Shown: positions 8,650 through 33,224 of the stretch, in pieces
Layout: each line of letters opens with the position of its first letter
Numbering within the stretch: the stretch's first letter is position 1
IMG/VR virus record: IMGVR_UViG_3300020045_005034
Location: 1 to 33,224 of that record
Length of the DNA stretch: 33,224 nt
Origin: a virus
Lineage: Duplodnaviria > Caudoviricetes
Reading direction: 5' to 3' (one strand)
Translations under genes and position numbers: made by a program
Notes under the pieces: generated by a model
What the model was told of the DNA's origin: nothing
Databases searched by the model: none
What the model saw: only the letters and a program-made list of their open reading frames with translations

Positions 8650-8766
8650 GTGAGTAAATTCTTAAATTATTGTGTTGACTATTATGAGATATTTGATGAT
8701 TGGCTCTATCGGACATTAACAAAATTGCTCGTACGTATATTTGACTTCGTAACCTCGCGTAAATAA
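8650..8766 (+). CDS. 38-aa hypothetical peptide
   Basis: GAAAGGA RBS, GTG start, stop inside motif 6. Confidence 0.45.
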   Translation: MSKFLNYCVDYYEIFDDWLYRTLTKLLVRIFDFVTSRK

Positions 8767-8783
8767 CAATGGCTATAATGAAG
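8755..8783 (+). promoter_or_regulatory. 29-bp motif, copy 6
   Basis: TCGCGTAAATAACAATGGCTATAATGAAG. Confidence 0.85.
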
Positions 8784-8854
8784 AAAAAGTTAGCTCAGTC
8801 GGTAGAGCGCACAGCAATAATTGTGAGGCATTAGTTCGAATCTAATACTTTTTC
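8784..8854 (+). ncRNA. tRNA-like cloverleaf with non-canonical 6-nt anticodon loop (isotype undeterminable)
   Basis: Acceptor AAAAAGT/ACTTTTT, D arm GCTC-AGTCGGTA-GAGC, anticodon arm CACAG-CAATAA-TTGTG, T arm ATTAG-TTCGAAT-CTAAT. No encoded CCA. Confidence 0.8.
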
Positions 8855-8889
8855 TTTTATATTTTTGAAAAAGGGGGGGGGGTACTAGA

Positions 8890-8982
8890 ATGGTTCGTAC
8901 GTACACTACACCAAGATGTCCGACATGTGGCTGGATCTGCTCGACTAAGTATTGTCAGAATTGTGGAGCAACAAGAAAGTAA
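8890..8982 (+). CDS. 30-aa Zn-ribbon micro-protein
   Basis: MVRTYTTPRCPTCGWICSTKYCQNCGATRK, with a G10 run in the RBS position. Confidence 0.6.
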   Translation: MVRTYTTPRCPTCGWICSTKYCQNCGATRK

Positions 8983-13973: not shown

Positions 13974-14002
13974 TCGCTTAAAAAACAATGGCTCTAATAG
14001 AA
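13974..14002 (+). promoter_or_regulatory. 29-bp motif, copy 8
   Basis: TCGCTTAAAAAACAATGGCTCTAATAGAA. Confidence 0.85.
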
Positions 14003-14075
14003 GGGTATGCTAGTTTAAAAAGGTAAAACACTCACAACTGTGTGAGAGAATTCGGTTCGAATCCGCGGGCTCTTC
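14000..14075 (+). ncRNA. Second, more degenerate tRNA-like cloverleaf
   Basis: Closing stem GAAGGGT/GCTCTTC, D arm GTTT-AAAAAGGTA-AAAC, anticodon arm CTCAC-AACTGT-GTGAG, T arm CGG-TTCGAAT-CCG. No CCA. Confidence 0.7.
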
Positions 14076-14100
14076 TTTTATATTTTTGAAAGGAGTATTT

Positions 14101-14253
14101 ATGATCACCGAGACAGAAAAGGAAAAGCTATTTGAGGAGCTTGGTATAAAATCCCCATCAAAAGTATATTTTGAAATGCTAAATGAAGTTAGAAAGGAGC
14201 AGCCAAATGCCAATCGAATCGAGAATGCAGAAGTTAATAACAATTCTGAATGA
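14101..14253 (+). CDS. 50-aa hypothetical protein
   Basis: GAAAGGAG RBS, ATG 14101, overlaps the ligase start. Confidence 0.55.
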   Translation: MITETEKEKLFEELGIKSPSKVYFEMLNEVRKEQPNANRIENAEVNNNSE

Positions 14254-15448
14254 AGCATGTAGGGATTATTATTCTGGAGTTGATGAGTCACCGATGTCAG
14301 ATGCTCAGTATGATCGATATTTGACAGAGTTAAAAGCTCTTGAGGCTGAGGCAGGCTATAAACTAGCTGACTCACCAACAGTTAAAGTAGGTTAAGAGGA
14401 GACGGACGATAAGATTAAGCATTATGCTCCGATCCTTTCTTTAAGAGACACTAAAAGTGTTGATGAACTTCTACATTTCTTAGGGCAGGAAGAGGGAATC
14501 TTATCTTGGAAACTCGATGGTATAAGTATTGTCTTATATTATCAGAACGGGCATCTCGAACGAGCAGTTAGCAGAGGCGATGGGTTTTATGGTAAGGATA
14601 TTACGAAAAATGTTATGCTTATGCGTGATGTGCCTAAGACTATAGATAGTAAAAGCACTCTTATTGTCCGGGGTGAAGGTTGTATATCCTTAGACGATTT
14701 CGCCGATCTCAAAGCTACTAAAGAAGGTGAAGGTTATAAAAATCCACGTAATCTAGCGGCAGGACTTATTAATAGCACTCGAACCACAAGCTCACTGCTT
14801 AGATACATGACTTTTGTAGCACATTCAATCATATTTGTTGCTGGGAGAGGGCGTAATCTAACTACTCGATCCGAGCAATTTGAGTATTTAGAGAAACTTG
14901 GTTTTCGGGTTGTACCACATATTAAGGTGGTCAACTATATTCTCAAGCACCAAATTGAGACTATGACGGGTATGATCGAGAACTTCGAATTCCCTGTAGA
15001 TGGGCTTGTTCTGGCACTTAATGACTTAGTACATAGCAACTCACTAGGCAGTACTATGAAATTCCCTAGGGATAGTATGGCTTTCAAATGGCCAGATGTC
15101 TCAGCTATGACGAACGTAACTGGTATGAAATGGAGCGTTAGTCAAACGGGTCTTATTACACCAGTAGTCTTATTTGAGCCTATCCAACTCGAAGGTACTA
15201 CTGTCAAGCAGGCTAACCTGCATACACTGAAAGTATTTGAGGAGCTTGGTATTGGTATTGGCGATATGATTGAGATTTATAAGGCTAATAAGATTATCCC
15301 GGAGGTTGCTGAGAACTATACCCGCTCCGACACAGAAGATTATCCACGTAAATGTCCTGTATGCAAGCAGGAGACCACGGTTGTAGCCAATGATAAAACT
15401 AAAAAGTTATATTGCTACAATTGCGCAGTGAAAGGGGGAGGCACATGA
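14207..15448 (+). pseudogene. ligA: NAD+-dependent DNA ligase homolog with in-frame TAA at 14393-14395, lacking HhH and BRCT domains
   Basis: Domain Ia YY....PMSDAQYD..SPT.KVG*, then in the same frame H..P.LSL, WKLDG, SRGDG..G.DIT, VRGE, NPRN.AAG, DGLV, AFKW, OB fold TGLITPV, and Zn finger CPVC..CYNC. Confidence 0.85.
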
Positions 15449-21381: not shown

Positions 21382-21410
21382 TCGCTAAAATAACAACTGT
21401 TCTAATGAAG
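21382..21410 (+). promoter_or_regulatory. 29-bp motif, copy 11
   Basis: TCGCTAAAATAACAACTGTTCTAATGAAG. Confidence 0.8.
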
Positions 21411-21443
21411 CTAAGCTTCTATATTTTGAAAGGAAGAAACACT

Positions 21444-30172: not shown

Positions 30173-30201
30173 TCGCAGAAATAACAGGGCCTCTAATAGA
30201 A
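30173..30201 (+). promoter_or_regulatory. 29-bp motif, copy 12 (heads nuclease-RNAP operon)
   Basis: TCGCAGAAATAACAGGGCCTCTAATAGAA. Confidence 0.85.
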
Positions 30202-30250
30202 GAAGAGGAAAATCTCTCTCTTCTATTATTTTTGGAGGGAGGCCGCTCAC

Positions 30251-31072: not shown

Positions 31073-33224
31073 ATGGGCGATGAATTAAGACATTATGGCA
31101 TGCCAAGACGCTCTGGGAGATATCCTTGGGGTTCTGGGGAAGATTCATATCAAAGAGCTATCGGTTGGCAAGAACATGTTGAAAGACTTCGCAGGCAAGG
31201 CATGAGTGATGCCGATATTGCTAAAAATGAGGGTATCAAAACTCCACAGTTAAGAGCTCGAATCTCGATTGCCAAAAATGAACAATGGAATACTGATCGA
31301 AATATTGCAGTTGCTCTTAAAGATAAAGGATATTCTCAAAGTGAAATTGGTCGTAGGATGGGACGTAATGAATCTCAAATTCGCAATTTCCTAAATCCAG
31401 TTCTTGCTGAAAGAGCGGCTATAACAGCTACTACTGCTAAGATGCTTAAAGAGAATGTTGATAAGTATCGGTATATTGATGTTGGAACGGGTATAGAAAA
31501 TCATTTAGGAGTTAGTCGTACCAAACTAAATACTGCCGTTGCACAATTAGCTGAAGAAGGTTATAAAATTCATAGCTTACATGTAGATCAACAAGGAATG
31601 CCAGGACAGTTTACAATTTATAAAGTATTAGGCTCTAAGGATAGTAGTTGGAAAGAATTAAAAGATGATATCAGTCTTCTTAAAAACATAACAACAACCT
31701 CTGATGACTTTGGAAGAACTTACAATACTTCAGATTTAGGATTAAAACCAATTCAACATTTGAATGTGGATCGAGTTAAAGTCCGATATGCTGAAGAAGG
31801 CGGTGGAGATCGGGATGGAGTTATTGAACTTCGTAGAGGAGTTGAAGATCTCAATCTTGGAAATTCCAAGTATGCACAAGTTCGAGTTGGAGTTAATGGA
31901 ACTCATTTCTTAAAAGGTATGGCCGTTTATAGCGATAAGATTCCAGATGGTGTCGATGTAGTATTTAATACTAATAAACATGATACCGGAAATAAACTTG
32001 ATGCTATGAAAAAACTTAAGGTAAATCCAGAGACAAAAGAAGTTGATCAGGATAATCCTTTCGGCGCCACTATCAAGAGAGAACTCGATGGTTTTGGTAA
32101 CTTAGTATCCGCTCAAAAAGGTGCATTAAACATTGTTAATGAAGAAGGTGATTGGGAAAAATGGTCAAAAACCATATCCTCTCAAATACTTTCTAAACAA
32201 ACAGTCCCCGTCGCCAAAACACAACTTAATTTAGCATGGTCTCAGAAAAAAGAAGAATATGACGAAATTATGGCACTAACAAATCCAGTCATAAAGAAAA
32301 AACTTCTTTTAGAGTTTGCGGATGAATGTGATTCGTCATCAGTTCATTTAAAAGCAGCAGCTCTTCCTAGACAAGCTAATAAGATTATTCTTCCAATTCC
32401 AGATCTTAAGGAAACGGAAGTTTATGCTCCAACATTTAATAATGGCGAAAACGTTGTCCTTATTAGACATCCACATGGTGGCACATTTGAAATTCCCCAA
32501 TTAAAAGTTAATAATACTTCTAAAGCAGCAAAATCTATCATGGAAAATGCATCAGATGCTATTGGTATACATCCTAATGTTGCCAAGAAACTTTCTGGAG
32601 CCGACTTTGATGGAGATACTGTAATCGTTATTCCAAACAATCGAGGTTTAATTAGAACATCAGATTCTTTGAAGGGTCTTGAAAATTTTGATCCAATTGA
32701 AAAATATAAACCTTATGATGGAATGAAAACGATTGATGGAGGAATTTATAACGCTAAAACTCGAGATGTAGATTATGGAAATAAGAAACCTCGAGCTCAG
32801 ACTAAACAAACCAAAATGGGTGAAGTTTCAAATCTAATTACAGATATGACTATTAAAGGGGCCAGTTTAGACAAAATAGCAAGAGCTGTTAAACACTCAA
32901 TGGTTGTTATTGATTCTGAAAAACATCATCTTGATTATGCCCGTTCTTATAAAGAGAATGGGATTGCATCTTTAAGTGAAGAATATCAGAATGGAAAACG
33001 TGGTGGTGCCTCAACTCTAATATCAAAAGCATCATCTGAATTAAGAGTTGATGAGCGAACACCTAGACATGCTAAAGATGGAGGCCCAATAGATCGTATT
33101 ACTGGAGAAAAGGTCTATACAAAAACTGGTGCTACTTATGAGAAGATGAAAGTTTCTATTGATCCAGTAACTGGAAAGAAAATATATACTCCTACTGGTA
33201 AAATTATTAAGAAACAAACACCTT
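31073..33224 (+). CDS. Single-chain two-barrel (double-psi beta-barrel) RNA polymerase with N-terminal HTHs, 3'-incomplete
   Basis: Read by hand from ATG 31073 (MGDELRHYGMPRRSGRYPWGSG...) with no stop to the window end (at least 717 codons). Contains LKGM, LIRHPH and the catalytic LSGADFDGD (DFDGD at 32603-32617). HTH-like GYSQSEIGRRMGRNESQIR. Confidence 0.88.
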   Translation, partial: MGDELRHYGMPRRSGRYPWGSGEDSYQRAIGWQEHVERLRRQGMSDADIAKNEGIKTPQLRARISIAKNEQWNTDRNIAVALKDKGYSQSEIGRRMGRNESQIRNFLNPVLAERAAITATTAKMLKENVDKYRYIDVGTGIENHLGVSRTKLNTAVAQLAEEGYKIHSLHVDQQGMPGQFTIYKVLGSKDSSWKELKDDISLLKNITTTSDDFGRTYNTSDLGLKPIQHLNVDRVKVRYAEEGGGDRDGVIELRRGVEDLNLGNSKYAQVRVGVNGTHFLKGMAVYSDKIPDGVDVVFNTNKHDTGNKLDAMKKLKVNPETKEVDQDNPFGATIKRELDGFGNLVSAQKGALNIVNEEGDWEKWSKTISSQILSKQTVPVAKTQLNLAWSQKKEEYDEIMALTNPVIKKKLLLEFADECDSSSVHLKAAALPRQANKIILPIPDLKETEVYAPTFNNGENVVLIRHPHGGTFEIPQLKVNNTSKAAKSIMENASDAIGIHPNVAKKLSGADFDGDTVIVIPNNRGLIRTSDSLKGLENFDPIEKYKPYDGMKTIDGGIYNAKTRDVDYGNKKPRAQTKQTKMGEVSNLITDMTIKGASLDKIARAVKHSMVVIDSEKHHLDYARSYKENGIASLSEEYQNGKRGGASTLISKASSELRVDERTPRHAKDGGPIDRITGEKVYTKTGATYEKMKVSIDPVTGKKIYTPTGKIIKKQTP

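What the first reader, a model, noticed from the sequence alone, without database searches (positions are those of the whole stretch)
8781..8870. tRNA mimic 1: intact D and T arms but a non-decoding anticodon loop
Seen: immediately after motif 6, a cloverleaf with canonical TAGCTCAGTCGGTAGAGC and GTTCGAATC. The anticodon loop is 6 nt (CAATAA, no U33), the A/U-rich acceptor stem extends to 10 bp (AAGAAAAAGT/ACTTTTTCTT), and there is no CCA. All four stems pair, which argues for maintained structure over decay. Inference: a non-translating tRNA mimic, such as a decoy for anticodon nucleases or T-box/uncharged-tRNA sensors, or an RNase P/Z processing or stabilising leader for the downstream operon.
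Basis: partly seen in the sequence, partly recalled or inferred. Interest (0 to 1): 0.8.

Follow-up and report, generated by a model that had tools for sequence, protein, structure and literature searches.

The report
Sealed tRNA-mimic RNA family in phages
A widespread group of bacterial viruses, including dairy and soil phages already in culture, carries a short gene predicted to fold like a tRNA whose codon-reading loop and amino-acid end are both disabled while its corner is kept; it likely acts as an inert look-alike that ties up host tRNA-binding proteins, which is untested.

Summary
Window 8780-8857 is a tRNA-shaped element (Rfam tRNA 51.6 bits) that starts at the first base after a repeated phage promoter motif; a second copy lies at 13999-14083. 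Collection scans gave 108 distinct cloverleafs in 66 clusters: anticodon-position loop 4 nt in 39 of 66 (20 GNRA, 2 UUCG), canonical U33 loop in 1, CCA in 1, pyrimidine at position 73 in 63. D-loop GG, T-loop and the Levitt pair are kept, and stems change compensatorily even between close relatives. Cultured carriers include Lactococcus phages 1706 and P092, Gordonia DJ phages, ReqiPepy6 and FP_oengus, so it is neither a read error nor simple decay. It is not a tRNA, Y RNA or T-box ligand. Best reading: an unprocessed, sealed tRNA-body mimic working in trans as a decoy (0.45); main rival: 5' leader or leaky terminator for downstream genes (0.27). No expression data were obtained. I found no published description; one catalogue's alignments could not be read. 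This scan noted similar anticodon-less mimics in unrelated phages (unchecked notes).

The parts
8755..8779 (+). Phage promoter-like motif TCGC-N7-ACA-N5-TATAAT, sixth of 12 copies in the window; inferred promoter of the RNA
   Evidence: 12 hits on + strand, 0 on - strand; same motif in 8 of 11 annotated relatives; promoter role is inference
8780..8857 (+). tRNA-like RNA, copy 1: terminal helix 8780-8790/8847-8857, D arm 8793-8808, anticodon-position arm 8810-8825, T arm 8830-8846
8815..8820 (+). 6-nt loop CAATAA in place of the anticodon loop; likely remnant of a tRNA-Ile(GAU) loop
   Evidence: alignment with a phage tRNA-Ile(GAU), locus L345
8855..8866 (+). U-rich tail after the terminal helix; predicted leaky terminator or U-rich spacer before the ribosome-binding site
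   Evidence: at least 5 T in the 8 nt after the stem in most clusters
8890..8982 (+). 30-aa Cys-rich ORF, first gene of the 4.9-kb stretch that follows without another promoter motif
   Evidence: (zinc-ribbon hit below the Pfam cut-off, E 0.008)
13974..13998 (+). Promoter-like motif of the second copy
13999..14083 (+). tRNA-like RNA, copy 2 (D stem GTTT/AAAC, 6-bp stem with 4-nt loop ACTG, no CCA, same U-rich tail)
31073..33223 (+). Putative phage RNA polymerase gene (DFDGD motif, runs off the contig); candidate enzyme for the motif promoters
   Evidence: phrog_4291, E 1.9e-284; bioRxiv 10.1101/842583 passages; link to this promoter is inference

Best explanation
The element is a selected, tRNA-derived gene with no usable anticodon and no CCA, predicted to be transcribed from the first base after the phage promoter into a 70-90 nt RNA whose 5' and 3' ends pair into one long helix, and it likely works in trans as an inert tRNA-body decoy that binds host proteins recognising the tRNA elbow and acceptor-T stack. 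Shown: tRNA fold elements, compensatory change, loss of anticodon, discriminator and CCA, position at the promoter, occurrence as a stand-alone cassette. Inferred: start site, ending at the U-rich tail with partial read-through into downstream genes, abundance, and the target, most likely a tRNA-attacking defence nuclease or toxin, or a tRNA-processing or modifying enzyme, that binds the mimic but cannot usefully cut it.
For: Family of 108 distinct cloverleafs in 66 clusters. Decoding end sealed: loop 4 nt in 39 of 66 (GNRA 20, UUCG 2), Y32-U33-R37 loop in 1 of 66. Charging end sealed: CCA 1 of 66, position 73 U/C in 63 of 66, pairing continues past 1:72 in 45 of 62. Elbow kept: in 39 viral clusters U8 36, A14 36, D-loop GG 35, A21 36; Levitt pair G15-C48 27, A15-U48 22, crossed 3 of 66. 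Ongoing selection: on 42 close-relative edges the T stem shows 10 double compensatory changes against 3 breaks, the anticodon-position stem 8 against 4, while its loop changes on 19 and the T loop on 4. First base after TMTAAT paired in 54 of 66, the -1 base in 21 of 58; own 5' and 3' strands fit better than swapped ones, mean z -2.4. Stand-alone: the next promoter follows directly in 15 of 66 clusters and in Pepy6, Poco6, Pherobrine, Hydrus, BluerMoon, P162 and (variant motif) Oengus. Phage P092 has two near-identical copies, one before a gene and one before the next promoter, which fits a dosage effect. Downstream genes differ; presence is patchy, 5 of 16 records tested, as for accessory host-interaction genes. 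Phage tRNAs counter tRNA-cutting defences (passages of PMC10802454, PMC11555353, PMC13096335).
Against: No RNA data, no target, no phenotype. 41 of 66 clusters and both window copies are followed by a gene with no new promoter motif, so read-through or a cis role is needed there. The characterised defences in the passages read recognise the anticodon loop (AriB) or the long variable arm of tRNA-Tyr (Septu), which these RNAs do not conserve, and there the phage tRNA works by replacing the host tRNA. Hairpins starting at +1 also occur in 24 of 205 other leaders (6.4% in shuffles). Part of the D-stem and Levitt covariation may be inherited from different parent tRNAs. The cluster counts are not phylogenetically independent, the search pattern fixed the T loop, and the cloverleaf filter required T-stem pairing.
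Confidence: 0.45

Rival explanations
1. Cis element: a compact 5' leader that would shield long phage transcripts from 5'-end-dependent decay, or a leaky terminator or attenuator that would set the level of the downstream operon, with the tRNA fold giving stability or recruiting modifying enzymes.
For: Gene follows within about 30-90 nt in 41 of 66 clusters; no further promoter within 1.2 kb for 26 of 66 mimic promoters against 16 of 187 others (sampling centred on the mimic inflates this contrast); window copies head 4.9- and 3.5-kb stretches, and two other long units start with simple +1 hairpins and a similar tail.
Against: A plain hairpin would do for 5' protection, yet elbow contacts are kept; a new promoter follows directly in 15 of 66 clusters and in most cultured examples inspected; the same sequence serves both contexts in P092.
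Confidence: 0.27
2. RNA partner of a phage protein, for example a cofactor or antitermination signal for the phage's own RNA polymerase, or a scaffold in a phage ribonucleoprotein.
For: Found at the clade's own promoter motif across actinobacterial and Firmicutes hosts; the clade encodes a putative RNA polymerase; about 12 of the 41 downstream genes look like DUF6353 N-termini by eye.
Against: No match in 11 of 16 related records tested, so it is not a core component; no gene accompanies it consistently; no Ro60/TROVE gene in 5 of 5 carriers or in the window.
Confidence: 0.14
3. Precursor that host RNase P, RNase Z and CCA-adding enzyme would mature into a chargeable, anticodon-less tRNA, or a cut signal that releases the downstream mRNA.
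For: T arm and D arm are intact; M. smegmatis YrlA is cut by RNase P and gets CCA (PMC4201824 passages); one member heads a real tRNA operon (L132/L013).
Against: All seven acceptor pairs in only 26 of 65; position 73 is U or C in 63 of 66; G3-U70 in 5 of 66; leader and trailer pair across both cut sites; leader length varies from 6 to 18 nt.
Confidence: 0.08
4. This particular copy is a decaying tRNA-Ile pseudogene or carries a one-base assembly error.
For: It is closest to tRNA-Ile(GAU) among the hits seen and keeps ATAA of that loop; the contig has an in-frame stop in the ligase gene and a 10-G run, so errors are possible; reads were not available.
Against: Relative to that tRNA-Ile the loop differs by a deletion and substitutions, the variable loop by another deletion, and the acceptor and T stems are rewritten on both sides and still pair fully; one inserted base would not give GAU, a purine discriminator or CCA; a second, different copy sits in the same contig; cultured phages share the architecture.
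Confidence: 0.05
5. attP remnant or other DNA-level site derived from a host tRNA gene.
For: Oengus has an integrase 1.5 kb from its element.
Against: Whole cloverleaf with RNA tetraloops and tertiary covariation rather than a conserved 3' half; found at many genome positions and in two copies; no integrase among the 29 window ORFs scanned (contig about 55% complete).
Confidence: 0.01

Closest known systems
Canonical phage and bacterial tRNA (Rfam RF00005), nearest seen tRNA-Ile(GAU)
   Same: Cloverleaf order, U8/A14/G18G19/A21, T loop, Levitt pair; 51.6 bits; D and anticodon stems align with a phage tRNA-Ile.
   Different: No 7-nt U33 loop, no CCA, pyrimidine at 73, terminal helix of median 10 bp starting at the promoter. 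Real tRNAs of the same phage group keep 7-nt loops and CCA (Oengus tRNA-Met; L013/L132 Leu, Gly, Ile).
Bacterial Y RNAs YrlA and Yrn1 (PMC4201824; passages and section 'Functional implications' read)
   Same: Non-coding tRNA mimics that keep D and T arms and the Levitt pair; Yrn1 has a 5-bp anticodon-like stem with a 6-nt loop; some are phage-encoded.
   Different: YrlA is permuted (acceptor stem closed by a loop), lies next to a Ro60 gene and has a GNCGAAN(0-1)G motif; here the ends are at the acceptor helix, the motif is in 2 of 66, and no TROVE gene was found.
Anti-defence phage tRNAs (T5 tRNA-Lys against PARIS, T5/T6 tRNA-Tyr against retron-Eco7 and Septu; passages of PMC10802454, PMC11555353, PMC13096335)
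   Same: Phage tRNA-shaped RNA from a strong promoter in an accessory region; altered loops that would resist cutting.
   Different: Those are functional tRNAs that replace the host tRNA; this RNA cannot decode, so any protection would have to be by competition.
'tRNA-OTHER' features of Rhodococcus phages ReqiPepy6 and ReqiPoco6 (GenBank GU580941, GU580942)
   Same: These annotations are members of this family; a 2026 paper counts them as one tRNA each (PMC13313380 table).
   Different: Annotated only as undetermined tRNAs; no family, structure or function given in what I could read. The original paper (PMC3020559) was not held.
tmRNA tRNA-like domain, mascRNA, viral tRNA-like structures, allo-tRNAs (first three recalled; allo-tRNA from PMC5389517 passages)
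   Same: Partial tRNA mimicry without normal decoding.
   Different: Those keep a free acceptor end for CCA or aminoacylation; here the acceptor end is buried and the D arm is complete.

Membership tests
Translating tRNA | Cloverleaf with conserved D and T arms | tested here: met
Translating tRNA | 7-nt anticodon loop with U33 and purine 37 | tested here: not met
   6-nt loop here; 1 of 66 clusters
Translating tRNA | 7-bp acceptor stem with free discriminator and encoded or added CCA | tested here: not met
   No encoded CCA; position 73 paired and pyrimidine. Post-transcriptional CCA addition itself could not be tested
Translating tRNA | Aminoacylation in vivo | not testable with these tools
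   needs experiment
Bacterial Y RNA (YrlA/Yrn1) | tRNA-like D/T domain with Levitt pair | tested here: met
Bacterial Y RNA (YrlA/Yrn1) | Ro60/TROVE gene nearby | tested here: not met
   0 of 5 complete carriers, 0 in the partial window genome; host-encoded Ro60 not examined
Bacterial Y RNA (YrlA/Yrn1) | GNCGAAN(0-1)G Ro-binding motif or Rfam Y RNA match | tested here: not met
   2 of 66; only RF00005 matched
tmRNA | Tag reading frame and CCA-ended tRNA-like domain | tested here: not met
   ARAGORN and Rfam found no tmRNA
Allo-tRNA (8/4 or 9/3) | Shortened T stem, long variable arm, functional anticodon | tested here: not met
   5-bp T stem, short variable region, no anticodon; definition
T-box riboswitch ligand | Anticodon for the specifier codon and unpaired 3' NCCA (recalled) | tested here: not met
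Anti-defence RNA decoy | Expressed during infection and relieves a tRNA-targeting defence | not testable with these tools
   no reads or phenotype available

The most novel reading that the evidence does not exclude
A clade-wide class of phage small RNAs, recruited repeatedly from different tRNAs, that keep the tRNA elbow but seal both working ends so as to act as uncleavable competitive inhibitors of tRNA-targeting host immunity or tRNA maturation enzymes: an RNA anti-defence strategy distinct from replacement tRNAs.
Probability: 0.3. Interest if true: 0.92.

Novelty: new variant of a known kind. Interest (0 to 1): 0.76.

Why it matters
Undetermined or pseudo tRNA calls in phage genomes are usually discarded as decay. 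Here they form a structured family under selection across hosts in two phyla, unannotated in 32 Gordonia phage records and in lactococcal phages. The design separates the two explanations for phage tRNAs against tRNA-cutting immunity, replacement or decoy, because this RNA cannot replace anything. Carriers that grow on Lactococcus lactis and Gordonia rubripertincta make expression, end mapping, deletion and pull-down directly feasible.

Tried and rejected
Exact search for the window's D arm plus stem in viral contigs: 0 hits; a looser one gave 3 hits, one ordinary tRNA-Ile and two unrelated partial matches, so no close homolog of this copy was found. No read or RNA evidence was obtained, so the one-base error and expression remain untested. 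Sigma-70 scan did not pick the motif as a -35/-10 promoter; a start 6-7 nt after TATAAT would fall inside the acceptor strand, which is why a start at the first base is inferred. ARAGORN at a very low threshold on the window gave 101 noise calls and was discarded. Genome-contig scan: 25 loci, by eye 5 family members, 3 ordinary tRNAs, the rest chance. Longer-spacer scan, meant as a control for ordinary tRNAs with leaders, returned mostly longer family members plus one tRNA-Leu locus seen twice. RNAalifold on the MAFFT alignment recovered only D and T stems because variable-loop lengths misalign the anticodon-position stem. PDB sequence search of the polymerase gave nothing meaningful. Rows dropped: of 168 distinct pattern hits 55 failed the cloverleaf filter (chance hits, a bulged-T-arm subfamily, a second RNA class) and 5 more lacked the purine start, two of them ordinary tRNAs. 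Literature: ten searches gave no description of the family. For PMC10690425 the tables were searched without a hit, but its alignment archives and PDFs could not be read, so overlap with one of its 10,006 candidates is not excluded.

Full report
Observation. The cloverleaf is present as described. ARAGORN reports an undetermined tRNA at 8783-8855 and Rfam RF00005 scores 51.6 bits, E 1.8e-8, the only match above a gathering score in the window. The anticodon-position loop is 6 nt without U33, the terminal helix has 10 Watson-Crick pairs plus a G-U, position 73 is C and there is no CCA. Folded alone the strand gives z -2.05 and does not recover the D and T arms, so the cloverleaf rests on comparative evidence. 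A second, different copy lies at 13999-14083.

Context. The window is about 55% of a phage genome with primase-polymerase, helicase, exonuclease, holins, DUF6353 genes and a putative RNA polymerase. Its relatives are the actinophage clusters AM, AU, AW, BI, CC, DJ and EL with Lactococcus phage 1706 and Faecalibacterium phage FP_oengus, a supercluster described, with the putative polymerase, in bioRxiv 10.1101/842583 (passages; the word promoter does not occur in it). A motif TCGC-N7-ACA-N5-TMTAAT occurs 12 times on the coding strand and never on the other, upstream of small genes, and in 8 of 11 annotated relatives. One paper calls a repeated cluster DJ motif a predicted translational start site (PMC11008172 passage). 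I infer a phage promoter. The element begins at the first base after the sixth copy.

Family. A pattern of promoter end plus D arm gave 21 viral loci; at a relaxed threshold ARAGORN called 18 of them, 13 undetermined and 3 stop-reading. Of 168 distinct viral and metagenome hits, 113 passed a cloverleaf filter and 108 began with the clade's purine start; these form 66 clusters at 78% identity. The 60 dropped rows include chance hits, two ordinary tRNAs, a subfamily with a bulged T arm and a second RNA class.

What is lost. The loop at the anticodon position is 4 nt in 39 of 66 clusters (20 GNRA, 2 UUCG), 3 nt in 8, 6 nt in 6, 7 nt in 2; a Y32-U33-R37 loop can be read in 1 of 66, and U33 in any register in 6. 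CCA is present in 1 of 66. Position 73 is U in 35, C in 28, A in 3; all seven acceptor pairs form in 26 of 65; pairing continues beyond 1:72 in 45 of 62. Ordinary tRNAs in the same phage group keep 7-nt loops and CCA, so this is not a lineage-wide tRNA oddity.

What is kept. Before any filter, the four T-stem pairs not fixed by the pattern are paired in 83% of 360 cells, against 41-47% when slid. In 39 viral clusters U8, A14, D-loop GG and A21 are present in 36, 36, 35 and 36. The Levitt pair is G-C in 27 and A-U in 22 of 66, crossed in 3. On a 39-sequence MAFFT alignment RNAalifold finds D and T stems with changes on both sides in 7 of 8 pairs, and the named structure has a covariation score of 0.56 against 0.25 in shuffles and 0.13-0.26 when slid (these controls do not correct for relatedness). 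Some of this could be inherited from different parent tRNAs, since D-stem types vary. The close-relative test is less open to that: on 42 edges the T stem has 10 double compensatory changes, 2 wobble changes and 3 breaks, the anticodon-position stem 8, 1 and 4, the D stem 0, 1 and 3; the anticodon-position loop changes on 19 edges and the T loop on 4.

Ends. The first base after TMTAAT pairs with the 3' tail in 54 of 66 clusters, the -1 base in register in 21 of 58; the median helix is 10 bp and a U-rich run follows. Each 5' strand fits its own tail better than others (mean z -2.4; best of all in 26 of 66). In phage 1706 a much longer leader still folds into one helix from the first base to the U tract. 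I infer a transcript that starts at the first base and is closed end to end. This is not measured.

Cultured carriers. Model R1 matched 4 of 11 and 1 of 5 annotated records: ReqiPepy6, FP_oengus, Pherobrine, 1706 and P092; Qui, Zeina, Rima, Mudcat, Damascus, Eevee, Siphovirus 29632, Tanis, Schwartz33, Linda and RosaAsantewaa had none. The Pherobrine element matches 32 Gordonia records, RefSeq duplicates included, none annotated; the 1706 element matches 7 Lactococcus records. Pepy6 and Poco6 carry the label tRNA-OTHER. Some of these cultured types are also among the 66 clusters, so they are not independent of them.

Origin of this copy. It aligns with a phage tRNA-Ile(GAU) over the D and anticodon stems, but its loop differs by a deletion and substitutions, and its acceptor and T stems are rewritten on both strands and still pair. 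It looks like a recruit from tRNA-Ile that has not acquired a tetraloop. A single read error would not restore a normal tRNA, although the contig may hold errors (in-frame stop in the ligase gene).

Mechanism. Downstream of the 66 clusters lie a ribosome-binding site and gene in 41, the next promoter in 15, neither in 6, and too little sequence in 4. The genes differ. P092 has two near-identical copies, one in each context. Stand-alone cassettes, duplication, patchy presence and the need for a whole elbow favour a trans-acting RNA. With both working ends sealed, the simplest action is to bind a protein that reads the tRNA body and to resist being cut, so I commit to a decoy (0.45). The target is unknown; defences that read the anticodon loop or the tRNA-Tyr variable arm (passages) fit poorly, so nucleases or processing and modifying enzymes that measure the elbow are likelier (inference). 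The leader or leaky-terminator reading stays strong (0.27), and for the two window copies read-through must supply the downstream genes unless another promoter type exists; both roles could coexist. The distance contrast is biased by sampling around the element and is weak evidence.

Comparison and novelty. It works like a tRNA mimic but fails the tests for tRNA, Y RNA (no TROVE gene in 5 of 5 carriers; topology and motif differ, PMC4201824 passages and one section), tmRNA and allo-tRNA (PMC5389517 passages). Ten literature searches found no description; passages of PMC13313380, PMC5513430, PMC7302621 and PMC11555353 added none. The library lacks most subscription papers, including the Pepy6 paper, and the alignments of PMC10690425 could not be read. 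Earlier notes of this scan list anticodon-less mimics in unrelated phages, mostly with CCA and few homologs (unchecked); none matched this sequence or genome.

Verdict. A real, selected, apparently undescribed family of non-decoding, non-chargeable tRNA-shaped RNA genes (about 0.9 for that identity), function inferred only. New variant of a known kind; interest 0.76.

Noticed in passing
L041, L052, L067, L075, L089, L114, L224, L278, L301; ReqiPepy6 directly after the tRNA-like element (L309:11322 onward): A second promoter-driven RNA class of about 135-150 nt: 5' hairpin, AGAC...AATG linker, T-arm-like hairpin, two further hairpins, closing with a pyrimidine tail. No Rfam match in the four loci scanned.
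   Followed up: partly
window 7029-30173, 12 copies: The motif TCGC-N7-ACA-N5-TMTAAT is shared almost unchanged by phages of actinobacterial and Firmicutes hosts; likely promoter of the clade's own DFDGD RNA polymerase, with a start apparently right after TATAAT.
   Followed up: partly
window 14207-15448: NAD-dependent DNA ligase gene with one in-frame TAA at codon 63 and ending early relative to the 656-position family profile; assembly error or pseudogene.
   Followed up: partly
window 8873-8882: Run of 10 G at the ribosome-binding site of the 30-aa ORF that follows the element; possible slippage site or assembly artefact.
   Followed up: no
L173, L175, L180, L185, L191: Longer family members with extra hairpins inserted in the D loop or a much longer anticodon-position arm, in gut phage contigs.
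   Followed up: no
L045, L060, L083, L094, L095, L110, L129: Subfamily with a bulged acceptor-T junction and a conserved 10-nt loop; L060 carries it in tandem with a second family member, each behind its own promoter.
   Followed up: no
window 21407-21419 and 30198-30224: Plain hairpins starting at the first base after the promoter motif, followed by a U-rich tail and ribosome-binding site like those after the tRNA-like elements.
   Followed up: partly
L344, L346: In two large unrelated phages, a tRNA-like stretch with a shortened anticodon loop and degenerate T arm sits just before a tRNA-Met gene.
   Followed up: no
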